From a virus (taxonomy: Duplodnaviria > Heunggongvirae > Uroviricota > Caudoviricetes), in IMG/VR virus record IMGVR_UViG_3300028952_000008, positions 1 to 13,515 of that record: DNA of 13,515 nt. One strand, given 5' to 3'. Under the pieces are notes generated by a model. It was not told where the DNA came from and searched no databases. It saw nothing but the letters and a program-made list of their open reading frames with translations. The position numbers and the translations under genes are program-made. This document shows positions 1-12,000 of the stretch, piece after piece; the first letter of the stretch is position 1; each line of letters begins with the position of its first letter.

Positions 1-1678
1 TCAGCGTCTGCCCGTTCCATACCGGCATACAGCGCATCGCCGAGCAGAAATCACTGAGCACATCCCACGCCTTACGCTGCGTGGTCAGCCAGGCATTACA
101 GGTGATGCGCGGCTCCGTGCCGCCAAAGCCGTCCGGCACCGACTGGTCGCAGTACTGGCCGATGACATACAGCGCCCATTTATCCACATCCGACGCACCA
201 AGACGTTTTCCCATGCCGTAGCGCGGATGGGTCAGCATATCCCACAGACACCAGGCCATGTTGTTGCTGTATGCTGGCTTAAACGTTCCGTCCCAGATAC
301 CGCTGTATTGTCGCGTCTGCGGGTTATAGTTCGACGGCACCTGCAGAATGCGCCCGCGAAGATGATAATTACGACTCACCTGCTGGCTGCCGAACTGCTC
401 CGAGTCCACCTGTACGCCGACCAGTGCCGTGTTCGGGTAGCACTGTTTCACATCGATGATTTCGGTGTATGACGACCAGAGCGTTTTGTTCTGCAGCTGG
501 TCTGTGGTGCTGTCCGGCGTCATCCTGCGCATCCGGATATTAAACGGGCGCGGCGGCAGGTTATCCACCACCACCGAGGCCAGATACTGCGAGGTGGTTT
601 TGCCTTTAATGGTGATGTCTTTTTCCGTCACCCAGCCACCGTTACGCTGTATCTGAACCAGCAGGCGGACTTCCGACGGATTCCGGTCCCCCTTTGAGGT
701 GGTTTCCACCAGTGCCTGCACACCGAAGGTAAAGCGCAGACGGTCGATGTTTGCAGACGTGATGGTCCGGGTAATCGGCGTGTCGTACTTCACTTCCGTA
801 CCCAGCACCGTCTCGGAGCCGGAGGATTCAAATCCCTCCGGCGGTGTCTGCTCCTGCTCACCGGCCCGGAACACCACCGTGACACCGGAGATATTGGTAT
901 TCCCCTCCCCGCCATGCATGATCTCCACCATGCGCTGCGTCATTCGGACAAATCCATTTTCAATAGCCTGCTGATAATCAATGATCACCAGCGCCGACTC
1001 CTCGAAAAGGCACTGAATTTCAGCGGGGGCATGAGCGTAATAGTCCGCAATTCTGCTGAAATTAAACACCGTGTGACGTTCTGCCGCACACAGGAGGAAT
1101 TTCTCAATATCAGGATCAAGGGACGCCGAACGTATCCGGCTGATCAGCTCCTGAGTTTTCGTATCGTCGTACAGTTCACTGATATCCGGTTTACCGCCCG
1201 ACGGCTCATAAACAGGCGTATCAATTTTCGTCGTATACGGCTCCTCCTTATTTCCTATACCGGGCAAAACATCCGTCAACAGTTCATCAATTTCTGTCGG
1301 GCCGAAGCCTGTCAGGGAGACATCAAAATCAGCATTGATTAGGACCGACAGCTCCATCCGCAACAGATCTTCATCCCAGCCAGCATTCATCGGTAGGCGA
1401 TTATCTGCCAAGCGGTACGCCTTTTTCTGCTCATCCGTCAGGCCAGACAGAACAATGACCGGAACAGAATCCATTTTGAGCATTTCAGCCGCCATAACAC
1501 GACCGTGACCCGCAATAATTTCGCCCTTTTCGTCAATCAGCACCGGATTAGTCCAGCCGAATTGCTTAATACTTTCTACCAGTTGTGCCACCTGCTCAGT
1601 ACTGTGCGTCCTGGCGTTGTGCGCATACGGTGACAATTCTTGTAATGGGCGATAGACTATCTTTAATTTCTCGCTCAT
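1..1678 (-). CDS. Chimeric ORF, 3'-truncated by the window edge: N-terminal ParB-like nuclease domain fused in frame to a lambda J-like tail tip / host-specificity protein segment (J-like part about nt 2-908)
   Basis: Hand translation from ATG at 1676-1678 (SD AAGG about 5 nt upstream) gives MSEKLKIVYRPLQELSPYAHNARTHSTEQVAQLVESIKQFGWTNPVLIDEKGEIIAGHGR..., a ParB/sulfiredoxin-type N-terminal motif. The frame stays open to ...EGNTNISGVTVVFRAGEQEQTPPEGFESSGSETVLGTEVKYDTPITRTITSANIDRLRFTFGVQALVETTSKGDRNPSEVRL..., which I recognise as phage lambda J from about residue 57. The frame was translated without a stop from 1678 down to about 661 and spot-checked at nt 2-58 (...LSDFCSAMRCMPVWNGQTL); nt 59-660 were not translated and continuity there is assumed. 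Absent from the ORF track because no stop lies inside the window. Confidence 0.75.
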   Translation of the reverse strand, partial: MSEKLKIVYRPLQELSPYAHNARTHSTEQVAQLVESIKQFGWTNPVLIDEKGEIIAGHGRVMAAEMLKMDSVPVIVLSGLTDEQKKAYRLADNRLPMNAGWDEDLLRMELSVLINADFDVSLTGFGPTEIDELLTDVLPGIGNKEEPYTTKIDTPVYEPSGGKPDISELYDDTKTQELISRIRSASLDPDIEKFLLCAAERHTVFNFSRIADYYAHAPAEIQCLFEESALVIIDYQQAIENGFVRMTQRMVEIMHGGEGNTNISGVTVVFRAGEQEQTPPEGFESSGSETVLGTEVKYDTPITRTITSANIDRLRFTFGVQALVETTSKGDRNPSEVRLLVQIQRNGGWVTEKDITIKGKTTSQYLASVVVDNLPPRPFNIRMRRMTPDSTTDQLQNKTLWSSYTEIIDVKQCYPNTALVGVQVDSEQFGSQQVSRNYHLRGRILQVPSNYNPQTRQYSGIWDGTFKPAYSNNMAWCLWDMLTHPRYGMGKRLGASDVDKWALYVIGQYCDQSVPDGFGGTEPRITCNAWLTTQRKAWDVLSDFCSAMRCMPVWNGQTL

Positions 1679-1690
1679 ACAGCCTTGCTT

Positions 1691-1729
1691 TATGAATAAA
1701 ACGCACCCCAGCAGCCAGTGCTACTGGGG
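1691..1729 (-). terminator. Candidate intrinsic terminator downstream of trkG
   Basis: Minus-strand hairpin CCCCAG-12 nt loop-CTGGGG (1706-1711 / 1724-1729) followed on the minus strand by UGCGUUUUAUUCAU. Short stem and long loop, so weak. Confidence 0.35.
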
Positions 1730-1815
1730 GCGGAGGTGTTGCTGGTAAAGTTAGGTATTGGATCAATGAGTGAGTCAATATAATATTAAACTCACAATTA
1801 TAAATCAGCCATATA

Positions 1816-3273
1816 TTAGGAGCGCCAAAAAAAAACTGAAAACAATATAATAACAGGATAAATTTCAAGGCGACCAAGAATCATAGCTATGCACATTAAA
1901 TATTTTGCAATGTCATTAAGCACTCCGAATGACGATGCAGTAGCCCCAAAACCTAATCCCATATTATTAATACATGCAGCCACTGTTGCAAATGATGTAA
2001 GAAAATCATATCCCATACCATTTAACACCAGTATAAAAAACACCGTGAAGAGAGTATAAAGAAAAAAGAAACTCCATACAGACCTCATTACACGATCTGT
2101 AACTATCTTCCCTCCTACATTTACACTCAACAACGCTCTGGGATGAGAAAGCTGATTTATCTCGTGTTTGCTTTGTTTGAAAAGTATAAGAAATCGAAGT
2201 GACTTAATTCCACCACAAGTTGAACCTATACATCCCCCAAAGAAACTTGACAACAGCAAAAACACTATCGTGTGCGTGGGCCAGTTTGCATAATCTTGCG
2301 TAGCTAAACCATTATCAGTGAGCATGGAGCTGGCAAGAAAAAACGAATGAATAAAACTTCCATGCAAGTCATACATACCTATATGCCAGACCTGGAAAGA
2401 GGTAACAATGATCACCACTAAGGCTATTAACAGAAAGAAACGAAGTTCAATATCTCTGATTAAAGGTTTTATCGTTTTTCTGCTAATAACAATATACCAA
2501 AGAGTAAAGTTGAAAGCCGATAGCAGGGAAAAAGCACCAGCCACCAGCTCAACCAAATAGTTATTAAAATATCCGATACTCTCGCTATGAGTTGAGAAAC
2601 CACCAAGCGAAACTGTGGAAATCCCGTGACAAATAGCATCAAACAAAGGCATTCCTGCAAGTCTATAACAGACAATACAAGCAATACCTAATAAAGAATA
2701 AGTTATCCACAGTGTCCGTGACGTATCGGCCAGGCGGGGAGTGAGTTTGTCATCCTTAAATGGCCCCGGCATTTCTGACTGATAAAGCTTTGCACCACCA
2801 ATACCCAATAATGGCAATACTGCAACCGCCAGAACAATAACTCCTAAACCACCTATAAAATTTAACTGTGACCGATAGTACAAATATGCCCGAGGTAATG
2901 AACTAACATCATCAATTACAGTTGCTCCTGTTGTTGTTATTCCAGAAACCCCTTCAAACAGAGCATCAATGAACGTTAAATTAAGTTCTGAGTCAATCCA
3001 TAAAGGGAATGCACTAATAACAGAAAACAAAATCCAAAACATTACAATTATAATAAACCCATCACGGGTACGTAATTGAATGCCAGATTTCTTAGTTGTA
3101 TACCACGCTCCGCCACCAATGCAAAAAAATATAACGAAAGTTATAAAGAAAACGAACAGGCTTTTTTCTTTATAAAACAATGCTACAACCATTGGTGGCA
3201 ACATTGAAAGACTATAGAGCCAAACCAGGAACCCACACATATGAGTAACAACTCTTACATGAGATGTATTCAT
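1816..3273 (-). CDS. trkG: TrkG/TrkH-family potassium uptake protein (485 aa)
   Basis: ORF-track ORF 1816..3291 begins at a TTG; the first ATG at 3273 gives 485 aa starting MNTSHVRVVTHMCGFLVWLYSLSML.... Multi-pass membrane protein with repeated glycine-rich pore-like motifs (TTTGATV, LGGFSTHSESIGYF, NNMGLGFGAT). Visibly AT-rich compared with neighbouring phage genes. Confidence 0.88.
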   Translation of the reverse strand: MNTSHVRVVTHMCGFLVWLYSLSMLPPMVVALFYKEKSLFVFFITFVIFFCIGGGAWYTTKKSGIQLRTRDGFIIIVMFWILFSVISAFPLWIDSELNLTFIDALFEGVSGITTTGATVIDDVSSLPRAYLYYRSQLNFIGGLGVIVLAVAVLPLLGIGGAKLYQSEMPGPFKDDKLTPRLADTSRTLWITYSLLGIACIVCYRLAGMPLFDAICHGISTVSLGGFSTHSESIGYFNNYLVELVAGAFSLLSAFNFTLWYIVISRKTIKPLIRDIELRFFLLIALVVIIVTSFQVWHIGMYDLHGSFIHSFFLASSMLTDNGLATQDYANWPTHTIVFLLLSSFFGGCIGSTCGGIKSLRFLILFKQSKHEINQLSHPRALLSVNVGGKIVTDRVMRSVWSFFFLYTLFTVFFILVLNGMGYDFLTSFATVAACINNMGLGFGATASSFGVLNDIAKYLMCIAMILGRLEIYPVIILFSVFFWRS

Positions 3274-3410
3274 ATCTAAATATTCTTTCAATTATAACCA
3301 CCTTGCTGCAATATTATGATTATACTGTATAAAATTTAACTCCTCTTAGATCTTACTTCACTGTTCCTTATGAAACAATCATCAAAATGAATCATATTGT
3401 AGTTAAGATT

Positions 3411-3875
3411 TTACTTTAAACACTGTTCGGTTATGTATTGCTGAGCACCTTCAAGTTGGGCCTGCATCATTACCAGTCGTTCCCGGAGGGTGAAATAATC
3501 CCGTTCAGCGGTGTCTGCCAGTCTGGGGGAGACTGCATTATCCACGCTGGAGGTGGCGGTGGCTTCACGCACTGACTGACAGACTGCTTTGATGCGCAAC
3601 CGACGACGACCAGCGGCAACATCATCACGCAGAGCATCATTTTCAGCTTTCGCATCAGCTAACTCCTTCAGGTATTTTGCATCGAGTGCAGCAACATCAC
3701 GCTGGCGTATCTGCATGTCAGTAATGATTGCGGTCGCCTGGTTGAGTTTTTCCGTCACATTATCGCGTTGCGCTTTGTAGGTAATGGCATTATCACGGTA
3801 ATGATTAACAGCCCATGACAGGCAGACGATGATGCAGATAACCAGAGCATAAATAATCACGGCAACTCTGCTCAC
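3411..3875 (-). CDS. rzpR: Rz i-spanin (inner-membrane spanin subunit)
   Basis: Translation ...[38 protein letters not shown]...[14 protein letters not shown]... closely resembles lambda Rz. The ORF-track start at 3890 is a TTG; a GTG at 3873-3875 overlaps the endolysin stop (GTGA) and gives a lambda-Rz-like length of 154 aa. Confidence 0.85.
3470..3655 (-). CDS. rzoR: Rz1 o-spanin lipoprotein, embedded in the +1 frame of Rz
   Basis: [61 protein letters not shown]: lipobox LVVVGC followed by a proline-rich stretch, wholly inside the Rz gene in another frame, as in lambda Rz1. Confidence 0.85.
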
Positions 3876-4405
3876 TGCTCTATCCCCCAACAGGCTAATG
3901 CGCTCTCCTGATCACGACGAATAACCTGACCGTAACAGTTATTTGAACGAAGGCGGCAATCGCGCCCCCTGTCCTTAATCCACCAGCGAATCGCCTCGCA
4001 GGCACCTTTACGATCACCTGCATTCAGCCGCTTATAAAATGTCGACGGAAAACACTTAGCGGGGCCAATGTTATAGGGACAAAATGACGCGATACCCGCT
4101 TTTTGTGGTTCGGTCAGTGTTACTTTAATATTGCGATCCACCCATGCCAGCGCCTTATCACGCTCAATGGCATTAACCTGATCGCATTTTTCCTTCGTCA
4201 GCCTCATTCCCGGTATGACGGGCTTACCATCCACCATTGTGGCACCACGACAGATGGTCCATATACCGGAACCATCGCGGTATGCCGTTGTGTGGTTACC
4301 TTCTTTTTCATCCAGAAACTGGTCGAGAATATCAGGCGCAGGCGCACCGACGGCAATCAGTGCCAGAACGGCAGCCGACAGGCCGTATCTGATTTTTGCG
4401 TTCAT
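3872..4405 (-). CDS. SAR endolysin (T4-lysozyme-like muramidase with N-terminal signal-arrest-release domain, phage 21 R type)
   Basis: 177 aa; N-terminal Ala/Gly-rich weakly hydrophobic segment [24 protein letters not shown], then E-x8-D-x5-T catalytic spacing ([18 protein letters not shown]) as in the phage 21 SAR endolysin. Partner pinholin lies upstream. Confidence 0.85.
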
Positions 4406-4510
4406 GGATATTTATCAGGATTTATCGGTTTCTGAACCCTGGATATGTTTATCTGTCCCGGCCTGTTGAATCAGGCAAGGAATAGTTAAATACAATAGAG
4501 AGGATTATTT

Positions 4511-4783
4511 ATGGACAATAGCACCATTTCTCTACAGGAGTTGCTCGACTGCATTTCCAGGCTTCGGGATGATGTAAATGCCCTTACTGTCGCATTTTCA
4601 TATCTGGCATTCTCAATTCCCAAGGAACAAATGCAACCAACACTGGCATCGCTCCAGCTTGAATCACTCAACCCCAAATGGTCCCAGCAACAACAAAATT
4701 CTTTCAAGTGGCTGGCGGTATTACTGGAAGAAAAATATGCTGGTGAAATTACCATTTCGGCGGAGTCTTCAGTGAACCAGTAA
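4511..4783 (+). CDS. Hypothetical 90-aa protein encoded antisense to the lysis cassette
   Basis: ATG at 4511 preceded by GAGGA about 8 nt upstream; protein-like composition (MDNSTISLQELLDCISRLRDDVNALTVAFSYLAFSIPKEQMQ...). Fills an otherwise unexplained ~340-bp gap between the endolysin start and the upstream gene's stop. Overlaps the 3' end of ORF 4749..5093 convergently by about 35 nt. Confidence 0.4.
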   Translation: MDNSTISLQELLDCISRLRDDVNALTVAFSYLAFSIPKEQMQPTLASLQLESLNPKWSQQQQNSFKWLAVLLEEKYAGEITISAESSVNQ

Positions 4784-5093
4784 TTCTTCCCGGCAGTTTT
4801 CCTTTGTAGGTTATCCGCACACCCTGCGCCTCTAAAATTATGGGGCGCTTTTCCGGTGACTGCTCATCCCCTTCACATAACCCGGCAGCAACATCCAGGA
4901 AGACCTGTCTGATGCTTCTTCTGGCTGCTGCCTCATAAAACTCCAGCGCGGCACCTTCAACACGGTCCAGCGAGATGTCCAGGTCTAAAATTTCACCGTC
5001 AAAGCGTTTTTTGTCCCGTAACGCTAAAGTTACCGTAACTTTATTCTCAAAATTGCGGATCCCTTTCACAATCAGTTCATAGTTTTGAGTCAT
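4749..5093 (-). CDS. Hypothetical 114-aa protein between holin and endolysin (YdfR/DUF1327-like by position)
   Basis: ATG at 5093 lies 4 nt after the holin stop, with the holin C-terminal codons GGAGAG acting as SD (translational coupling). Soluble-looking protein MTQNYELIVKGIRNFENKVTVTLALRDKK.... The family assignment is from recalled gene order in the Qin prophage (essQ-ydfR-rrrQ), not from sequence identity. Confidence 0.6.
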   Translation of the reverse strand: MTQNYELIVKGIRNFENKVTVTLALRDKKRFDGEILDLDISLDRVEGAALEFYEAAARRSIRQVFLDVAAGLCEGDEQSPEKRPIILEAQGVRITYKGKLPGRITGSLKTPPKW

Positions 5094-5097
5094 TGAA

Positions 5098-5304
5098 TTA
5101 CTCTCCCCGTGCAGCCTTACGCTTATCTTCTTTAATCTTGAAATAAAGATTTGTCAGATACGTCAACAGGCCAAACACCAGACTACCCAGCACACCTATT
5201 GCTGCCCACTGTGAGGGCGTGACTCTATCGAGCAACTGTAAAAACCAGTAGCCAGCACTGCCTGCGGAGGTGCCATAGGCGACACCTGTTGTTAACTTAT
5301 CCAT
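5098..5304 (-). CDS. Class II holin, pinholin of the phage 21 S type
   Basis: 68 aa [68 protein letters not shown]: two TM segments plus a charged C-terminus, near-identical to the S21 pinholin as I recall it. An in-frame TAA two codons upstream rules out a longer antiholin form. Confidence 0.88.
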
Positions 5305-5364
5305 GGATTAAGGACCACCAGCCCAAGCTCAGGCACCAGAACAGGTCTAAGTAATACCCGCACG

Positions 5365-5637
5365 TTACCTCCAGATCCGTTGCTGGAAAGTGCGGGACGG
5401 ACGTGGTGGGCGTTCGGAATAAGGCAGCCTGACAGAGATTATCCAGTGCCGATAGTCGAGACTGAGAGCTTTCTTAACCTCGAACCCGCGCCTGCGGTAA
5501 GAATGAATCAGCCATTCGGCCTGTTCTTCAGTACATGGTGGGTGTTGGTACCAGTCGGTTTTAAATGCGTGTGAACGCCGCTCATGCCGGATGGCAAGGT
5601 CGGTATCAGAATTGTGAAATTTGGTTTTGTGCGCCAT
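5365..5637 (-). CDS. Hypothetical 90-aa basic protein immediately upstream of the holin
   Basis: ATG at 5637 with only a weak SD (AGAGAAAACAG-ATG); His/Arg-rich (MAHKTKFHNSDTDLAIRHERRSHAFKTDWYQHPP...). It sits 60 bp upstream of the holin and downstream of a strong terminator. No recognisable family. Confidence 0.4.
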   Translation of the reverse strand: MAHKTKFHNSDTDLAIRHERRSHAFKTDWYQHPPCTEEQAEWLIHSYRRRGFEVKKALSLDYRHWIISVRLPYSERPPRPSRTFQQRIWR

Positions 5638-5707
5638 CTGTTTTCTCTGCTGGCGCAGCAGGTGTCAGGTGTTCAGGCTGACGTGCGAATTGTAAACCAG
5701 AATGCCA

Positions 5708-5736
5708 GGAAAAAACAAAACCCGCCGAAGCGGGTT
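5708..5736 (-). terminator. Rho-independent terminator (hok mRNA 3' end, possibly also a late-operon tR'-like terminator)
   Basis: Minus strand reads AACCCGC-UUCG-GCGGGUU followed by UUGUUUUUUCC: a 7-bp GC-rich stem, tetraloop and U-tract, about 70 nt after the hok stop. Confidence 0.7.
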
Positions 5737-5804
5737 AAGTGCGGGTGCGTTGAGGATGCCTGACACATCAGAGGTGGCGAGGGATTTCTCCCCCGCCAGG
5801 TCTC

Positions 5805-5960
5805 TTACTCCTCAGGTTCGTAAGCTGTGAAGACAGCGACCTCCGTCTGGCCGGTTCGGATTCGTACCTCGCAGAGGTCTTTCCTCGTTACCAGTGCCGT
5901 CACTATGACGGTTAAACAGATGACGATCAGGGCGATTAACATCGCCTTTTGCTGCTTCAT
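5805..5960 (-). CDS. hok: Hok/Gef-family type I toxin (51 aa)
   Basis: Not in the ORF track (<60 aa). Hand translation: MKQQKAMLIALIVICLTVIVTALVTRKDLCEVRIRTGQTEVAVFTAYEPEE, with N-terminal TM helix and conserved C-E...R.G..EVA.F.AYE; SD AAGGAG 9 nt upstream. As I recall, near-identical to HokD/RelF and Gef. Confidence 0.9.
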   Translation of the reverse strand: MKQQKAMLIALIVICLTVIVTALVTRKDLCEVRIRTGQTEVAVFTAYEPEE

Positions 5961-6016
5961 AGCCTGCTTCTCCTTGACCTTTCGGTCCGTAAGAGGCTAA
6001 TCTCTATGTGTCGCAT
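5957..6016 (-). promoter_or_regulatory. hok leader with a translationally coupled 19-codon upstream ORF (mok-like)
   Basis: Minus-strand ATG at 6014-6016 opens MRHIEISLLRTERSRRSRL, ending in TGA that overlaps the hok ATG (ATGA). The uORF start sits in the palindrome TCTATGtgtcgCATAGA (6002-6019). Confidence 0.4.
5974..6003 (+). promoter_or_regulatory. Candidate promoter for a Sok-like antisense RNA
   Basis: Plus-strand TTGACC (5974-5979), 18-bp spacer, TAATCT (5998-6003); a transcript from about 6010 rightward would be antisense to the hok leader and uORF start region. No RNA evidence. Confidence 0.3.
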
Positions 6017-6218
6017 AGATATGGCCTCAGATTAATGTTAAGCGTCTTGCAGGACGCGTAATGTTAACTGGGGCTTTTCTCTATCTGCCTTTTGGTGTTC
6101 ATGCCTGAGACAGATAGCCTCAAGCACCCGCAGTTATTCTACTTAACTAAGATTTCCCCGCAAACCGTTTTTGTCCGGCACAGTAAATATCCAACTAAAC
6201 CAATGGCGTTCGCTGTAT

Positions 6219-6398
6219 TTACCGCCAGTATTCAATGCACATGACCGCCATGAACACCCCTAAAAAAAGGGCATTTATATGTCCAAACATTAATATCAAA
6301 ACATCAATTTTTTCCATATACCTTGCTGTGAAGATGATGGGCATACATGATGCGAACAACCAGAACGCAACAAACAAAAACTGCAATGCGTTTTTCAT
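6219..6398 (-). CDS. Hypothetical small membrane protein (59 aa) in an AT-rich island
   Basis: The ATG at 6398 (not the ORF-track start 6437) has a strong SD AGGGGGA 5 nt upstream. MKNALQFLFVAFWLFASCMPIIFTARYMEKIDVLILMFGHINALFLGVFMAVMCIEYWR has two hydrophobic segments. Surrounding sequence about 6230-6520 is markedly AT-rich. Confidence 0.5.
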   Translation of the reverse strand: MKNALQFLFVAFWLFASCMPIIFTARYMEKIDVLILMFGHINALFLGVFMAVMCIEYWR

Positions 6399-6518
6399 TA
6401 TTCCCCCTACAATCAATGTGCAATAACATTTAAACACACCTCAATTTGGCCGGACATATAAATATCTAAACCAGAAAAAATCACTTACATAGCGTTACAA
6501 ACTCTTTAGTCTAAATAT

Positions 6519-7034
6519 TCATCGTAAAACATCCTCCACGCTTATCAGTCCATTTCGTTTCAGGTAATCTATCGCCTTCTCCGGTAATTTGCAGTCCGGC
6601 TGAGCTTTTTTCAGTTGACTGACCAGTCGTTTAACCCACATTGTTAATTCGCTAACCTGATTGCCGGATGCTGGTGGATTGTCGGCTTTACCCAGAATGG
6701 CAGCGCAGCAGGCCTCTCTGAGCACCCAGTCAACAGCATCCTTCCATGCTCCTGTTTCGACTGGCGGATTCTCACGCTTTACCTGTTCATAAAAGCGCAC
6801 GGCTTTAACCAGTCCTTCTGATGTCACCGGGACTGGCGGGCCGATGAATAAGGCCTGAATTTCATAGTTCGGCCTGTCGTTACAATCCTCTTTTGTCGGT
6901 ACATATTTCCAGTCACCAGCCCACGGCTTCCCCTGAAAGTCTGTAACGTCTTTTTTCACGTAGCGATATCGCCATGCAACTGGTTTTGCCTGCCCTGCCG
7001 TTTCATGCCCTTCCTGATAATTAATCTCGCTCAT
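6519..7034 (-). CDS. Hypothetical 171-aa protein, last gene of a three-gene coupled operon
   Basis: ATG at 7034 overlaps the stop of the upstream 58-aa ORF (ATGA). Long ORF with normal composition (MSEINYQEGHETAGQAKPVAWRYRYVKKDVTDFQGKPWAGDWKYVPTKEDCNDRP...). No recognisable family. Confidence 0.7.
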   Translation of the reverse strand: MSEINYQEGHETAGQAKPVAWRYRYVKKDVTDFQGKPWAGDWKYVPTKEDCNDRPNYEIQALFIGPPVPVTSEGLVKAVRFYEQVKRENPPVETGAWKDAVDWVLREACCAAILGKADNPPASGNQVSELTMWVKRLVSQLKKAQPDCKLPEKAIDYLKRNGLISVEDVLR

Positions 7035-7207
7035 TCATCGCCCCACTCATCACAATATGCTTCGACCGGAGTTTTTCCTGCTTCATAATCATCACGCCAT
7101 GCTTCAGCATCAGCAGCACTGCCACCACGTAACTCTGCATAGTCCATTAACAGTTCATGCCATGCTTCAAAACTGACGTTGTATTTAGTTGAACCAAAAT
7201 CAGCCAT
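7031..7207 (-). CDS. Hypothetical small acidic protein (58 aa)
   Basis: Not in the ORF track. Hand translation MADFGSTKYNVSFEAWHELLMDYAELRGGSAADAEAWRDDYEAGKTPVEAYCDEWGDE; by my count 15 Asp/Glu against 4 Lys/Arg. Its start overlaps the stop of the 60-aa ORF (ATGGCTGA) and its stop overlaps the next start (ATGA). Confidence 0.55.
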   Translation of the reverse strand: MADFGSTKYNVSFEAWHELLMDYAELRGGSAADAEAWRDDYEAGKTPVEAYCDEWGDE

Positions 7208-7382
7208 TTTGCTCTTCCTCTTCGTCTTTTATTTCGTGATGTGAGTAATTGCAGTAGTTAAAGAAAATATCTTTTGCTTCGTCATGTATTTCATCAGGCG
7301 TCGCATCATCATCCACTTCGAATTCATCCTCGAAATCTCCACCGGCTATTTCCGTTTCAATAATTATTTTAAACTTTCGCAT
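7200..7382 (-). CDS. Hypothetical small, extremely acidic protein (60 aa)
   Basis: MRKFKIIIETEIAGGDFEDEFEVDDDATPDEIHDEAKDIFFNYCNYSHHEIKDEEEEQNG; by my count 21 Asp/Glu against 5 Lys/Arg. AT-rich coding sequence. Upstream SD AGGAGG is separated from the ATG by a stable hairpin. Confidence 0.6.
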   Translation of the reverse strand: MRKFKIIIETEIAGGDFEDEFEVDDDATPDEIHDEAKDIFFNYCNYSHHEIKDEEEEQNG

Positions 7383-7388
7383 TTAACT

Positions 7389-7411
7389 ACCGCCCTTTCG
7401 GGCGGCCTCCT
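7389..7411 (-). promoter_or_regulatory. SD-hairpin-start arrangement upstream of the 60-aa acidic ORF
   Basis: mRNA reads 5' CAUCAGGAGG-CCGCCC-GAAA-GGGCGG-UAGUUAA-AUG: a 6-bp GC stem with GNRA loop sits between SD and start codon (linear spacing about 23 nt, about 7 nt if folded). Confidence 0.4.
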
Positions 7412-7475
7412 GATGTTCTGAGGGTGCAGAAATCCCTCCGGTTAAGGATTAAATTTTTAACAGAGCTAAATTTAA

Positions 7476-7832
7476 TTATTCAGTTCTGGATTTTGTCGCC
7501 CTGCGTATCCGCGCTTTCGCGTTACGCTCAATCTGAATTAGCTTTTCTATATTTTTTCGCCTTTCCCGCTCCTCCTGACGCAAGAGCCTTACATCATCTG
7601 CCAGTCTGGTTTCTCTTTTCGCCACAGAGAGCATCCAGTCAAATGGCTCCACAACTGCACCGCAGATTTTACAGCGGACCTGACGCTCTTTTTCGTCAAC
7701 CCGGACAGAGGCGTGATGACAATATGGTCTTTCCGATGGCTCATAAAGAAAATTAACCTGATTACGAGGGTCATCCTCTTTTACCGGAAATAAAACGATA
7801 TTGCTTAACTCATCCTCTGGTTTTATTTCCAT
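7476..7832 (-). CDS. Hypothetical zinc-ribbon protein with a basic coiled C-terminus (118 aa)
   Basis: ATG at 7832 with strong SD GGAGAGGAG. Contains PYCHHASVRVDEKERQVRCKICG (Cys/His cluster with C-x2-C) and an Arg/Lys/Glu-rich tail LLRQEERERRKNIEKLIQIERNAKARIRRATKSRTE. Confidence 0.7.
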   Translation of the reverse strand: MEIKPEDELSNIVLFPVKEDDPRNQVNFLYEPSERPYCHHASVRVDEKERQVRCKICGAVVEPFDWMLSVAKRETRLADDVRLLRQEERERRKNIEKLIQIERNAKARIRRATKSRTE

Positions 7833-7875
7833 GCTCCTCTCCTTTGATGCGAATGCCAGCGGTAATTGAAGCCTN

Positions 7876-7885
7876 NNNNNNNNNA
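7876..7885. other. Assembly gap (10 N)
   Basis: Run of n characters; true length and content unknown. Confidence 0.99.
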
Positions 7886-7896
7886 GCTAATTTCAC

Positions 7897-8319
7897 TCAC
7901 AGTACCGCCTCCTGAAAATTACCCTGATAGAAAGCCAGTACACGCTGCATAGCTTCACTCTTCCGGCACTCGCGACAGATTATGTTTAGGCGACTGTCGT
8001 AGCGACGTATTTCTCCGTCAGGTAACGACCAGATAAGGTCCGGATCAACCACAACCGGTTTCTTCAGCTTTGCCCTCGATAATTTTTTGCGGGCATTTTG
8101 CCAGTCTTTACGAGCCTGTTCAGACGGGAATAACCCGTAGCCAGAATTGTATACATCGCCACTGGCAACCAGCTCTCTGGCCAGAACGCTCATCAGATAT
8201 CTTGTCGCCCCCGTTTTAGCTTCCAGTTGTCGTAACGTCTCTCGCCCGCTCTGGCGTACAAGATCAACAATCTGCCCTTTAATTTTTTCTCGCTCTTCCT
8301 GTGTAAATACTTTTGCCAT
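7897..8319 (-). CDS. Hypothetical 140-aa protein (possible N-terminal helix-turn-helix)
   Basis: The ORF-track start at 8385 is a TTG; the ATG at 8319 has strong SD GGGGAGGG 4 nt upstream, giving MAKVFTQEEREKIKGQIVDLVRQSGRETLRQLEAKTGATRYLMSVLARELV.... The stop is only 12 bp from the assembly gap. Confidence 0.6.
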   Translation of the reverse strand: MAKVFTQEEREKIKGQIVDLVRQSGRETLRQLEAKTGATRYLMSVLARELVASGDVYNSGYGLFPSEQARKDWQNARKKLSRAKLKKPVVVDPDLIWSLPDGEIRRYDSRLNIICRECRKSEAMQRVLAFYQGNFQEAVL

Positions 8320-8335
8320 AAGCCCTCCCCAGGAA

Positions 8336-9061
8336 TCACTTTTCCGACACAATACGACTGGAGGAATCGACAATCTGACGGACAATATCCTGGTGCTTGT
8401 TCAGCTCACGCAGCGCGGCGCAGACTCGCTCCCACTTCTGGACATAACTTTTCGCCCGGCGCAGTTCGCGGTTTGCCATTTGCAGCGATGGTATAATCAG
8501 GTCATTGGCTCGCGTTTCAGTGAACGATGGTAGTGACTGCACAATGTCCCCCACAGTATCTGTTTTAATTTCTTCCTGTGTTGCCGCTTCCTGTACTGGT
8601 AACGCAACACCGGCTGGCTGAGGAAAGCCTTTACCAGGTGTTTTCACTACCGATACAACTTTCGGCTCTGCTGGTAAATTACCGTCCGGCAGGCAGTAAC
8701 GAAATTTACCGTTCTGATTTACGCGAATCAGACGACCTTTGCTGATGGCCATAGCCAGCGATGAGTTCACCCTGCGGGAAGTAATTCTGAATATCAGTGC
8801 AAGTTCATCAGCCGCTTTAGGGCCATGCTGTTCAATCGCCTCGATCAGCATTTGCGCTGTCACTTTAGAAGCCTGTGCTACAGATGCGTTTTCGTCGGTT
8901 TGAGTCAACCACCACATCGGGCCCTTGTTATCAGCTTCCCCACGACGCTTCAGTTTCCACAGCTCGTTAATCGCCTCATCCCGGGTCATTCCCAGACGTG
9001 CTGCCACTTCCTGGGAAGAGGCTTTTCCCATTGCTTTCAGTGCGTCAAAAACGGTCTCCAT
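8336..9061 (-). CDS. Hypothetical 241-aa protein with winged-helix-like N-terminus, directly downstream of ydaV
   Basis: The ORF-track ATG at 9112 would overlap ydaV by 29 nt; the ATG at 9061 follows SD GGGAGG (8-nt spacer), 22 nt after the ydaV stop. METVFDALKAMGKASSQEVAARLGMTRDEAINELWKLKRRG... looks like a wHTH. Position corresponds to ydaW of K-12 Rac as I recall it. Confidence 0.6.
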   Translation of the reverse strand: METVFDALKAMGKASSQEVAARLGMTRDEAINELWKLKRRGEADNKGPMWWLTQTDENASVAQASKVTAQMLIEAIEQHGPKAADELALIFRITSRRVNSSLAMAISKGRLIRVNQNGKFRYCLPDGNLPAEPKVVSVVKTPGKGFPQPAGVALPVQEAATQEEIKTDTVGDIVQSLPSFTETRANDLIIPSLQMANRELRRAKSYVQKWERVCAALRELNKHQDIVRQIVDSSSRIVSEK

Positions 9062-11125: not shown

Positions 11126-11376
11126 GAATCAACTCCCATCAGCTTTTTCGTAGTAGTTTTATTTCTGCCAATAGTTAAAATTGCATCGGCAGAAAATAAT
11201 CCGTTTGATGCATGAGCGATTTTTTCAGCGTAATTTGTTTCGCCGGTATATTCTGTGCGAGGCAATTTTCCGTTATCCATCCATTTGTAGATTGCTCTTT
11301 GGCTGACACCACAAACGTCGGCCACAACAGAAACGCGAACAGTTTTGATTACATCTTCAAGTGTTTTCTGGTTCAT
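11122..11376 (-). CDS. ydaS: Cro-like HTH protein YdaS
   Basis: The ATG at 11376 has SD GAGGA; the ORF-track start at 11448 would put the N-terminus inside the operator region. MNQKTLEDVIKTVRVSVVADVCGVSQRAIYKWMDNGKLP... contains a helix-turn-helix. Divergent from racR. Confidence 0.8.
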   Translation of the reverse strand: MNQKTLEDVIKTVRVSVVADVCGVSQRAIYKWMDNGKLPRTEYTGETNYAEKIAHASNGLFSADAILTIGRNKTTTKKLMGVDS

Positions 11377-11455
11377 ATCATCCTCACAATGTGAACTTTG
11401 AGTACATGCTATAACAGAACTGACAGTACATTCAAGAGCGAATATCATTGAACTT
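11377..11455. promoter_or_regulatory. Divergent promoter/operator region between ydaS and racR (OR-like)
   Basis: 79-bp intergenic region with two direct AGTACAT motifs (11401-11407, 11425-11431) and AT-rich -10-like hexamers; racR has no clear SD, consistent with a near-leaderless maintenance transcript. Confidence 0.55.
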
Positions 11456-11875
11456 ATGGTTCATGAAGATAAAGCGCGTAAAGAGTTCGCCAGTAGGCTT
11501 GCGCTAGCCTGTGAAAACGCTGGTTATGAACAACATGGAAGGCAGGCAGAAATTGCCCGTCGAATGAAATTAACACCAAAAGCGGTTAGCAAATGGTTTA
11601 ATGGTGAAACAATTCCTCGCCGAGAGAAATTAAGGGAATTAGCAACACTCATTGGAACAACACCAACCTATCTTTTGGGAGAGGATACAGAAGAAAGTGG
11701 ACAGATACGTTTCTATCAGGAGTTAAATCCAAGACAAAAAATCATCATTGACCTTCTGGACGAGCTCCCTGACAGTGAGACAGATGAACTTTTAAAAACT
11801 CTTGAGGAGAAAAAACAGAAGTACAATGCAATTTACGAAGAGTTAGCACGAAAGAAAAAACAAAAAGCCTCTTAA
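11456..11875 (+). CDS. racR: XRE-family HTH prophage repressor
   Basis: 139 aa; HTH RQAEIARRMKLTPKAVSKWFNGETIPRREKLRELATLIG near the N-terminus; divergent from the Cro-like ydaS. The only in-frame ATG after the upstream stop is at 11456. Confidence 0.8.
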   Translation: MVHEDKARKEFASRLALACENAGYEQHGRQAEIARRMKLTPKAVSKWFNGETIPRREKLRELATLIGTTPTYLLGEDTEESGQIRFYQELNPRQKIIIDLLDELPDSETDELLKTLEEKKQKYNAIYEELARKKKQKAS

Positions 11876-11939
11876 ACCAGCATAAATCCGGTAGCGTCCC
11901 CCTCCGGGTTTGTGCTTCACTTTATCCCGTCTCATTTTT

Positions 11940-12000
11940 TTATACATAAAATGTACTTAAAGTACTTTACAATGATGAACACAAAGTACATTATATACCT
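11940..12000. promoter_or_regulatory. Second operator-like cluster downstream of racR (OL-like)
   Basis: ATGTACT (11951-11957) and AGTACAT (11985-11991) form an inverted pair around the palindrome AAGTACTT (11960-11967); TTTACA and TATATA promoter-like hexamers nearby. Confidence 0.45.

What the first reader, a model, noticed from the sequence alone, without database searches (positions are those of the whole stretch)
3411..5304. Complete pinholin / SAR-endolysin / spanin lysis cassette with an extra gene between holin and endolysin
Pinholin (S21 type), a SAR endolysin and Rz with embedded Rz1 are all intact and mutually consistent, since pinholins need a SAR endolysin. The genes are tightly coupled (holin stop to next ATG 4 nt apart; endolysin TGA overlapping the Rz GTG). 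As I recall, the K-12 Rac copy has lost holin and endolysin, so this strain appears to carry a more complete lysis module. An extra 114-aa gene of unknown role sits between holin and endolysin.
Basis: partly seen in the sequence, partly recalled or inferred. Interest (0 to 1): 0.4.

Follow-up and report, generated by a model that had tools for sequence, protein, structure and literature searches.

The report
Ordinary Rac lysis cassette, regulatory region deleted
This is a common, already annotated E. coli prophage lysis module (pinholin, YdfR-family gene, SAR-type lysozyme, Rz/Rz1); all its reading frames are intact, but a strain-specific 4.3-kb deletion has removed its late promoter region, its Q antiterminator and the first three codons of the holin.

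Summary
On the minus strand lie a P21-type holin (5304..5098), a 114-aa gene (5093..4749), a lysozyme (4405..3872), Rz (3875..3411) and embedded Rz1 (3655..3470), with the stated 4-nt spacer and GTGA overlap.

1. The "extra" gene is a YdfR-family (DUF1327) protein. The same holin-ydfR-lysozyme order is in K-12 Qin (essQ-ydfR-rrrQ) and in all 80 viral contigs examined, so it is not new.
2. A 90-aa ORF on the opposite strand (4511..4783) is a real gene (dN/dS 0.2-0.36) carried on a discrete 292-bp insertion, and it behaves like a moron.
3. "Complete" is wrong at the regulatory level. Compared with a 100%-identical cassette in strain TUM9803, the window has a 4,343-bp deletion ending 1-5 nt upstream of the holin ATG. 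It removes DUF968, RusA, Q, five terminator-like hairpins, the holin Shine-Dalgarno sequence and the Met1-Lys2-Ser3 antiholin start. This junction occurs in 1 of 5,426 complete E. coli genomes.

Verdict: already known and ordinary, low interest. The functions of YdfR and of the 90-aa protein remain open.

The parts
5098..5304 (-). Pinholin gene (EssD/S21-68 form), 68 aa. It lacks the Met1-Lys2-Ser3 antiholin start found in relatives.
   Evidence: PF04971 E 4e-35. 98.5% identical to K-12 EssD residues 4-71. The TUM9803 copy is 71 aa, MKSMDK.... 435 of 438 phage records with a match cover at least 80% of the 71-aa form.
5305..5309 (.). Junction of a 4,343-bp deletion relative to the fuller Rac prophage of TUM9803.
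   Evidence: BLAST of the window against L005 gives 898-5309 = L005 3598-8010 and 5305-6548 = L005 12354-13597. Junction sequence shown. The junction is found in 1 of 5,426 genomes.
5292..5363 (-). Remnant of the DUF968 gene: GTG 5363, 23 codons, new stop at 5294..5292, overlapping the holin ATG.
   Evidence: Translation [23 protein letters not shown]. The first 18 residues equal the start of the DUF968 protein in L005.
4749..5093 (-). YdfR-family (DUF1327) gene, 114 aa, cytoplasmic, tightly coupled to the holin.
   Evidence: PF07041 E 8e-42 and phrog_406 over its full length. 80% identical to K-12 YdfR over residues 1-74, with an unrelated C-terminus. No hydrophobic segment.
4511..4783 (+). 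Convergent 90-aa gene (PGAP WP_000370551.1, phrog_2411) that overlaps 35 nt of the ydfR-like 3' end. Moron-like.
   Evidence: phrog_2411 E 3e-59. Shine-Dalgarno GAGAGGA. dN/dS 0.19-0.36 with a third-position excess. Present in 1,053 of 5,426 genomes. AF2 gives a three-helix model, pLDDT 81.5.
4462..4753 (.). 292-bp insertion that carries the 90-aa gene. It is replaced by 19 nt in otherwise collinear cassettes.
   Evidence: 17 of 80 IMG/VR loci have the same YdfR-like gene 76 nt from the lysozyme and no 90-aa gene. A candidate promoter TTGAAT-19-TACAAT at 4466-4496 lies inside the insertion (weak).
3872..4405 (-). RrrQ-type GH24 lysozyme with a predicted SAR (signal-anchor-release) N-terminus (codons 1-24 = 4405..4334).
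   Evidence: PF00959. 90% identical to K-12 RrrQ and 31% to RrrD/R21. PDB 3hde E 5e-15. E35-x8-D44-x5-T50, residues 7-24 are 9/18 Gly/Ala/Ser/Thr, Kyte-Doolittle hydropathy 2.15, no Cys before residue 52.
3411..3875 (-). Rz i-spanin, 154 aa. The GTG start overlaps the lysozyme TGA.
   Evidence: PF03245 E 1e-48 and phrog_13 over its full length. N-terminal transmembrane domain with Kyte-Doolittle hydropathy 3.36. Cys99 and Cys152. 81% identical to RzpD.
3470..3655 (-). Rz1 o-spanin lipoprotein, 61 aa, embedded in Rz.
   Evidence: PF06085 E 1e-18. Lipobox VVG-C20, Cys29, 9 Pro among 41 mature residues. 97% identical to K-12 RzoR.
5719..5736 (-). Intrinsic terminator-like hairpin after hok. It is the only one on the minus strand between the early genes and the holin.
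   Evidence: AACCCGCTTCGGCGGGTT followed by a T-run.

Best explanation
The region is the lysis module of a Rac-type lambdoid prophage of E. coli TUM10008. It is of the widespread kind EssD-type pinholin / YdfR-family gene / RrrQ-type SAR lysozyme / Rz with embedded Rz1.

If the proteins are made, they should work as in phage 21 (established for that paradigm, inferred here):
1. The pinholin accumulates in the inner membrane and forms small holes that collapse the proton-motive force.
2. The Sec-exported, membrane-tethered lysozyme is then released and becomes active.
3. The Rz-Rz1 complex disrupts the outer membrane.

Two passengers sit between holin and lysozyme.

- The YdfR-family protein is a co-transcribed, cytoplasmic accessory protein. 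Its K-12 homologue binds the catalytic half of RNase E and co-purifies RNA. It is not needed for envelope disruption, because most phages with the same holin and lysozyme types lack it.
- The 90-aa three-helix protein is carried on a discrete 292-bp insertion on the opposite strand. It is an independent moron-like gene, not a lysis gene.

In this strain a 4,343-bp deletion fused codon ~19 of the upstream DUF968 gene to a point just before Met4 of the holin. The cassette therefore lost its Q antiterminator, the Q-to-holin region with five terminator-like hairpins (where a late promoter would be), the holin ribosome-binding site and the antiholin start.

My commitment, which is inferred and not shown: the cassette is silent in the lysogen. 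It can now be transcribed only by the upstream unit that formerly served DUF968-RusA-Q, so any lysis would be Q-independent, mistimed and without antiholin. The prophage is defective anyway, because trkG is followed directly by the tail-tip gene J.
For: - Component identities: Pfam and PHROG matches, identities to K-12 EssD, YdfR, RrrQ, RzpD and RzoR, PDB match to phage 21 R, and sequence features.
- Arrangement is common: the same order is in K-12 Qin, in many RefSeq genomes annotated 'essD | YdfR family | hypothetical | lysozyme | lysis protein', in 80/80 IMG/VR contigs, and in the isolated phage Chlobot at 92.7% identity.
- Deletion: TUM9803 has a 100%-identical cassette preceded by DUF968, RusA, Q (PF03589, E 3e-50), two hypothetical genes and a 71-aa holin. 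That interval holds 11 terminator-like hairpins against 4.7 +/- 2.1 expected. Five of them lie on the gene strand between Q and the holin.
- The junction is unique to TUM10008.
- No sigma-70-like site lies on the minus strand between the hok terminator and the holin in the standard scan. A relaxed scan finds only weak candidates.
- YdfR: K-12 YdfR binds Rne 1-597 in a bacterial two-hybrid (BACTH) assay and in pull-down. The interaction maps to residues 1-72, and RNA co-purifies (PMC13232886). The window protein is 80% identical over residues 1-74.
- YdfR is dispensable: 438 phage records have the holin and about 359 have the lysozyme at 80% identity or more, but only 100 have YdfR.
- 90-aa gene: purifying selection, a discrete insertion, and homologues placed antisense in a tail operon, near a terminase, beside iha and on an IncF plasmid.
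- Defective prophage: trkG is followed directly by gpJ in TUM10008.
Against: - No expression data exist for this strain, and promoter and terminator scans are consensus matches only.
- A GGTGG lies 10 nt upstream of the holin ATG, and the DUF968 remnant ORF ends 10 nt past that ATG. Translation of the holin could therefore still be efficient.
- The RNase E link rests on one paper about the K-12 protein, whose overexpression changed the transcriptome little.
- The 90-aa protein has no functional clue: no PDB fold match and no Pfam, NCBIfam or PADLOC hit.
- The SAR behaviour of the RrrQ-type lysozyme is predicted, not demonstrated here.
Confidence: 0.75

Rival explanations
1. One reading: a complete, normally regulated lysis module that would lyse the cell at the proper late time on prophage induction.
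For: All four lysis ORFs are intact and identical to those of TUM9803. Gene coupling is tight.
Against: Q, the Q-to-holin regulatory region, the holin Shine-Dalgarno sequence and the antiholin start are deleted. Structural genes from ParB through most tail genes are also missing, since trkG abuts gpJ.
Confidence: 0.05
2. The cassette is transcriptionally and translationally dead. The hok terminator, the lack of a promoter and the loss of the holin ribosome-binding site prevent any meaningful expression even after derepression. The intact ORFs reflect only the recency of the deletion.
For: A strong hairpin with a T-run lies at 5736..5719, and no sigma-70-like site follows it on the minus strand. 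The native Shine-Dalgarno sequence GAGGTGGGGG is lost. The junction is unique to one genome, which suggests a recent event.
Against: In the intact relative the same upstream unit must pass the same hok terminator to express Q, so some transcription reaches this point. A weak TTGTTT-18-TACAAT lies at 5718-5689. GGTGG lies 10 nt from the ATG and a terminating upstream ORF overlaps it. YdfR-like, Rz and Rz1 keep their own signals.
Confidence: 0.3
3. The YdfR-family protein is a dedicated lysis regulator of the pinholin or of the RrrQ-type SAR lysozyme, for example a timing factor, rather than an RNase E/RNA-binding accessory.
For: It always lies between an S21-type holin and an RrrQ-type lysozyme (80/80 loci, and Qin). 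It is translationally coupled: 4 nt after the holin here, and its stop overlaps the rrrQ start in Qin.
Against: It has no membrane segment or signal peptide, whereas both proposed targets are in the membrane or periplasm. About 72% of phage records with this lysozyme type lack it. K-12 YdfR pulls down RNase E and RNA.
Confidence: 0.12
4. The 90-aa ORF matters as an antisense transcript that damps expression of the lysis operon in cis, rather than as a protein.
For: It is convergent with the lysis operon, overlaps the ydfR-like 3' end by 35 nt and lies in the leader of the lysozyme.
Against: There is clear purifying selection on the protein, dN/dS 0.19-0.36 with third-position differences about twice those of first or second positions. 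Homologues at 26-36% identity conserve a helical pattern. Copies exist outside any lysis cassette.
Confidence: 0.08

Closest known systems
K-12 Qin prophage essQ-ydfR-rrrQ-rzpQ/rzoQ
   Same: Same gene order of holin, YdfR and lysozyme. Holin is 93% identical, YdfR 80% over residues 1-74, and lysozyme 90%.
   Different: Qin has a 71-aa holin. It has a different YdfR C-terminus whose stop overlaps the rrrQ start. It has no 90-aa antisense gene: window 4416-4887 is replaced by 92 nt. Its spanin is unrelated (DUF2514 RzpQ).
Phage 21 / DLP12 S21-R21-Rz-Rz1 (essD-rrrD-rzpD-rzoD)
   Same: The paradigm of pinholin, SAR endolysin and embedded spanin. Holin is 98.5% identical to EssD residues 4-71, Rz 81% and Rz1 95%. 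Mechanism reviewed in PMC9636201.
   Different: DLP12 has no gene between holin and lysozyme. The lysozyme is only 31% identical. DLP12 keeps the dual start MKSMDK.
Rac prophage of E. coli TUM9803 (and about 130 other genomes with the trkG-linked cassette)
   Same: 100% identical DNA from trkG to the holin. It encodes the same YdfR-family, 90-aa, lysozyme and Rz proteins.
   Different: TUM9803 keeps DUF968, RusA, Q, two hypothetical genes, the terminator-rich leader, the 71-aa holin and the ParB-to-terminase genes.
K-12 Rac (ydaW-rzpR'-rzoR-trkG)
   Same: Same prophage backbone: sieB, ydaU, ydaV, trkG, Rz1.
   Different: K-12 lacks window 3849-8647, so it has no holin, no YdfR-like gene, no 90-aa gene, no lysozyme and a 5'-truncated Rz.
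Stx-phage lysis cassettes (BP-4795, Stx1a phages)
   Same: S21-type pinholin, YdfR-family gene, predicted SAR lysozyme and Rz. Predicted SAR endolysin plus pinholin occurs in 99% of Stx phages (PMC8136144).
   Different: About 81% DNA identity. These often carry ant between R and Rz. Most Stx2a phages lack YdfR.
Lambda-type morons (bor, lom)
   Same: The 90-aa gene is a small gene on a discrete insertion, opposite in orientation to the late operon and found at varying positions.
   Different: It has no demonstrated promoter or terminator, no known function, and no signal peptide or lipobox.

Membership tests
P21 holin S family (class II pinholin) | Sequence membership (PF04971) | tested here: met
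   120 bits against a cutoff of 26. 98.5% identical to EssD residues 4-71.
P21 holin S family (class II pinholin) | Two transmembrane domains: TMD1 weakly hydrophobic and Gly/Ala/Ser/Thr-rich, TMD2 hydrophobic, and a charged C-terminal tail | tested here: met
   Residues 5-24 are 12/20 G/A/S/T. Residues 33-54 have Kyte-Doolittle hydropathy 2.1. The tail is [13 protein letters not shown].
P21 holin S family (class II pinholin) | Dual-start motif encoding the antiholin S21-71 (Met1-Lys2-Ser3-Met4) | tested here: not met
   TAA lies in frame two codons upstream of the ATG. The deletion removed ATG-AAA-TCC, which is present in TUM9803. At least 435 of 438 phage records cover 80% or more of the 71-aa form.
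P21 holin S family (class II pinholin) | Forms small heptameric holes and needs a SAR endolysin | not testable with these tools
   A partner lysozyme with a predicted SAR N-terminus is present. Pinhole formation needs experiments.
SAR endolysin (GH24, R21-like class) | T4-lysozyme-type catalytic triad E-x8-D/C-x5-T | tested here: met
   E35, D44 and T50, aligned with the same positions of 3hde. PF00959 at 84 bits.
SAR endolysin (GH24, R21-like class) | N-terminal basic residues followed by a weakly hydrophobic Gly/Ala/Ser-rich transmembrane segment that is not cleaved | tested here: inconclusive
   K4 and R6, then [18 protein letters not shown]: 9/18 G/A/S/T, Kyte-Doolittle hydropathy 2.15. 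Pro follows the Ala-x-Ala-like sites, which from general knowledge disfavours signal peptidase I. Cleavage or release was not tested.
SAR endolysin (GH24, R21-like class) | No Cys in the SAR segment (R21 class, not the P1 Lyz disulfide-isomerisation class) | tested here: met
   The first Cys is at residue 52.
Two-component embedded spanin (Rz/Rz1) | i-spanin with an N-terminal transmembrane domain and a coiled periplasmic domain | tested here: met
   PF03245 at 165 bits. Transmembrane domain with Kyte-Doolittle hydropathy 3.36 at residues 4-18.
Two-component embedded spanin (Rz/Rz1) | o-spanin lipoprotein (lipobox plus Cys) wholly embedded in another frame of Rz | tested here: met
   VVG-C20. 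3655..3470 lies inside 3875..3411. PF06085 at 67 bits.
Two-component embedded spanin (Rz/Rz1) | Periplasmic Cys residues for intermolecular disulfides | tested here: met
   Rz has C99 and C152, and Rz1 has C29. Function not tested.
YdfR family / DUF1327 | Sequence membership | tested here: met
   PF07041 at 142 bits against a cutoff of 25. phrog_406 matched over 1-114 of 114.
YdfR family / DUF1327 | Binding to the RNase E N-terminal domain, as reported for K-12 YdfR residues 1-72 | not testable with these tools
   80% identity over residues 1-74. The paper is PMC13232886.
Lambdoid Q-dependent late operon | Q antiterminator gene and a terminator-containing leader upstream of the holin | tested here: not met
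   Present in TUM9803: PF03589 and five hairpins on the gene strand. Deleted in the window.
Moron (for the 90-aa gene) | Discrete insertion between genes that are adjacent in related phages | tested here: met
   A 292-bp insertion at 4462-4753, absent from 17 of 80 collinear loci.
Moron (for the 90-aa gene) | Own promoter and terminator, expressed from the prophage | tested here: inconclusive
   Only a weak TTGAAT-19-TACAAT candidate at 4466-4496. No terminator was found.

The most novel reading that the evidence does not exclude
YdfR-family proteins may be phage-encoded modulators of RNase E that are delivered together with the lysis genes, to protect or time late and lysis transcripts. The 90-aa family may be a mobile antisense moron that lambdoid phages insert into late operons (lysis cassette, tail operon, terminase region) for a lysogen-benefit or anti-phage role. 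In this strain the deletion would also have rewired the lysis genes to early, Q-independent transcription, making a suicide-like module that fires on derepression.
Probability: 0.2. Interest if true: 0.5.

Novelty: already known. Interest (0 to 1): 0.15.

Why it matters
It matters little as a discovery. The cassette type, including the gene between holin and lysozyme, is annotated in K-12 Qin, in many RefSeq genomes and in Stx phages.

It is useful as a correction. Intact ORFs do not make a complete lysis module, because here the regulatory half and the antiholin start are deleted.

It also flags two small, widespread genes of unknown function that ride in lysis cassettes. YdfR now has a published RNase E link. 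The 90-aa three-helix protein is present in about 19% of complete E. coli genomes. Both are cheap to test genetically in viable phages such as Chlobot.

Tried and rejected
- Function of the 90-aa protein. It has no Pfam, NCBIfam or PADLOC hit. An exhaustive HMMER search of 1.8 billion representatives gave only about 20 small relatives. The AF2 model (pLDDT 81.5) gave no PDB match with an E-value better than 3.7.
- YdfR as an obligate partner of the RrrQ-type lysozyme. Rejected, because only 100 phage records carry YdfR against about 359 with that lysozyme type.
- The 90-aa ORF as a chance ORF. Rejected on dN/dS and on conservation outside lysis cassettes.
- Promoters for the holin or the 90-aa gene. 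Only weak consensus matches were found.
- Literature. Searches for DUF1327, ydfR with holin, and rrrQ/essQ found no study of the gene's role in lysis.
Full report
**Source and context.** The window is identical to E. coli TUM10008 chromosome NZ_CP135658.1. It lies in a Rac-type prophage with sieB, ydaF, a repressor and HTH pair, ydaT, ydaU, ydaV, DUF1627 and DUF977 genes, hok/sok, the lysis genes and trkG. In this strain trkG is followed directly by the tail-tip gene J, so the head genes and most tail genes are missing.

**Checking the observation.** All the reported ORFs exist on the minus strand with the stated coupling.
- Holin: 5304..5098, 68 aa.
- 114-aa gene: 5093..4749, with a 4-nt spacer after the holin TAA and the Shine-Dalgarno sequence GGGGAGAG.
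- Lysozyme: 4405..3872, 177 aa.
- Rz: 3875..3411, whose GTG overlaps the lysozyme TGA as GTGA. PGAP and the alignment to RzpD agree with this start.
- Rz1: 3655..3470, embedded in Rz.

Pfam and PHROG assign them to P21 holin S, DUF1327, phage lysozyme, Rz and Rz1 with E-values from 1e-18 to 1e-48.

**What the components are.** The module is a mosaic of familiar K-12 prophage genes.
- The holin is 98.5% identical to DLP12 EssD residues 4-71.
- The 114-aa protein is 80% identical to Qin YdfR over residues 1-74, and its C-terminus is unrelated.
- The lysozyme is 90% identical to Qin RrrQ but only 31% to RrrD, the phage 21 R type.
- Rz is 81% identical to RzpD, and Rz1 is 97% identical to RzoR.

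The lysozyme matches the phage 21 R structures (3hde, 3hdf) and RrrD (4zpu) at E ~1e-14. E35, D44 and T50 align with the catalytic triad. Its N-terminus ([24 protein letters not shown]) is basic, then weakly hydrophobic and half Gly/Ala/Ser/Thr, with no Cys. That is the R21-like SAR pattern by sequence. Release from the membrane was not tested. Rz has an N-terminal transmembrane domain plus C99 and C152. Rz1 has the lipobox VVG-C20, C29 and a Pro-rich mature part. The pinholin, SAR endolysin and spanin mechanism is taken from the phage 21 literature (review PMC9636201). The same predicted pairing occurs in 99% of Stx phages (PMC8136144).

**The extra 114-aa gene is known.** K-12 Qin has essQ-ydfR-rrrQ in the same order. 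RefSeq annotates 'essD | YdfR family protein | hypothetical protein | lysozyme | lysis protein' in many genomes. All 80 IMG/VR contigs retrieved with the protein show holin, YdfR, an RrrQ-type lysozyme and Rz/Rz1 wherever the contig extends that far. The isolated phage Chlobot carries the same arrangement at 92.7% identity.

The protein has no hydrophobic segment. It is dispensable for this lysis system. Among 50,697 phage records, 438 have the holin and about 359 have the lysozyme at 80% identity or more, but only 100 have YdfR.

The only functional data I found are for K-12 YdfR. It binds the catalytic N-terminal half of RNase E in two-hybrid and pull-down assays. The interaction maps to residues 1-72, RNA co-purifies, and overexpression has little effect on the transcriptome (PMC13232886). 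By homology I infer the same activity here, with moderate confidence. My AF2 model was too weak to add anything.

A 90-aa ORF (4511..4783, + strand, Shine-Dalgarno GAGAGGA) lies in the 343-nt interval before the lysozyme. It overlaps the ydfR-like 3' end by 35 nt. It matches phrog_2411 over its full length, and PGAP annotates it (WP_000370551.1).

Several results show it is a real gene.
- Pairwise dN/dS is 0.19-0.36, and third-position differences are about twice those at first or second positions.
- Relatives at 26-36% identity keep a common helical pattern.
- AF2 predicts a three-helix protein with pLDDT 81.5.

It sits on a discrete 292-bp insertion (4462-4753). Seventeen of 80 otherwise collinear cassettes lack the insertion and have 19 nt in its place. 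In Qin the whole variable block 4416-4887 is replaced by 92 nt.

Homologues occur in other places.
- One lies antisense between tail genes.
- One lies next to a terminase.
- One stands alone in a chromosome.
- One lies beside iha on an island.
- One lies beside an autotransporter gene on an IncF plasmid.

The sequence is in 1,053 of 5,426 complete E. coli genomes but in only 3 phage records. This is moron-like behaviour. Its function is unknown: there is no fold or family match.

**The cassette is not complete.** E. coli TUM9803 carries the same DNA (99.98% identical from window 898 to 5309), but upstream of the holin it continues differently. Reading in gene orientation, TUM9803 has hok, then a 90-aa protein (window 5637..5365), then DUF968, RusA and antiterminator Q (PF03589, E 3e-50). 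Next come two hypothetical genes and a leader rich in terminator-like hairpins. The holin there is 71 aa and starts GAGGTGGGGGTT-ATG-AAA-TCC-ATG.

The window lacks 4,343 bp of this. Its junction (…GGTCCTTAA|TCCATGG…, about 2 nt of microhomology) joins codon ~19 of DUF968 to the sequence just before Met4 of the holin.

The deletion has four consequences.
- Q is gone.
- The Q-to-holin region is gone, with five hairpins on the gene strand. That interval holds 11 terminator-like sites against 4.7 +/- 2.1 expected.
- The holin's own Shine-Dalgarno sequence is gone.
- The antiholin start is gone, so only the S21-68-equivalent protein can be made.

This junction occurs in 1 of 5,426 genomes, whereas 435 of 438 phage holins cover the 71-aa form.

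Upstream, the only minus-strand terminator-like site is the hok terminator at 5736..5719. No good promoter follows it. The DUF968 remnant ORF (GTG 5363, 23 codons) stops 10 nt after the holin ATG, and a GGTGG lies 10 nt before the ATG, so residual translation is possible.

I infer that the cassette is silent in the lysogen. If it is transcribed at all, it is driven by the unit that used to express DUF968, RusA and Q. That expression would be Q-independent and mistimed. The alternative, that the cassette is simply dead, is nearly as likely.

**Comparison with K-12 Rac.** K-12 Rac aligns to window 1425-3848 (trkG, Rz1 and most of Rz) and resumes at 8648 in ydaW. It therefore lacks window 3849-8647.

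**Verdict.** The module is an ordinary, already annotated lysis module of a defective prophage. The extra gene is the known ydfR family. The points worth keeping are the corrections: a second antisense gene and a regulatory deletion. Two widespread small proteins also remain without a known function.

Noticed in passing
window 5805-6129 (minus strand): A hok/sok type I toxin-antitoxin locus. The ORF matches HOK_GEF (PF01848, E 1e-23), Rfam 'sok' scores 106.7 bits at 5958-6129, and a strong terminator lies at 5736..5719.
   Followed up: partly
L014 4001-4267, L012 4001-4267, L009 2517-2789, L010 2458-2736: Distant homologues of the 90-aa protein sit antisense between tail genes (gpM-like and gpL), next to a terminase, beside iha, and beside an autotransporter gene on an IncF plasmid. 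This is a mobile small gene family of unknown function.
   Followed up: partly
window 1816-3291 and L001 3360-8974: trkG follows Rz, as in K-12 Rac. In TUM10008 trkG is followed directly by tail-tip gene J, whereas TUM9803 has ParB, GREB1-related and terminase genes there. This is a second large deletion in this prophage.
   Followed up: partly
window 11132-11999: The repressor and HTH region (139-aa HTH protein at 11456..11875 and the divergent 108-aa ORF) has no megablast match to K-12 Rac racR/ydaS. The flanks are 90-98% identical, so this is probably a different immunity type.
   Followed up: no
window 6519-7034: the ORF listing gives an intact 171-aa ORF (phrog_660, E 2e-74), yet PGAP marks a pseudogene ('frameshifted; internal stop') at the equivalent of window ~6569-6885. 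The discrepancy was not resolved.
   Followed up: no
L001 18979-19676 (about window 13278 onward): PGAP annotates an IS1 transposase that interrupts kilR at the right edge of the window.
   Followed up: no
L005 8327-9877: In the intact relative, two hypothetical genes (346 and 169 aa, no Pfam hit) lie between Q and the holin, the position that stx occupies in Stx phages. Both are deleted in the window.
   Followed up: no
window 4406-4435: The lysozyme ATG has no recognisable Shine-Dalgarno sequence (…CCTGATAAATATCC-ATG). In Qin the same ATG overlaps the ydfR stop, which gives translational coupling. With the 292-bp insertion that coupling is lost, yet viable phages such as Chlobot keep this layout.
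   Followed up: no
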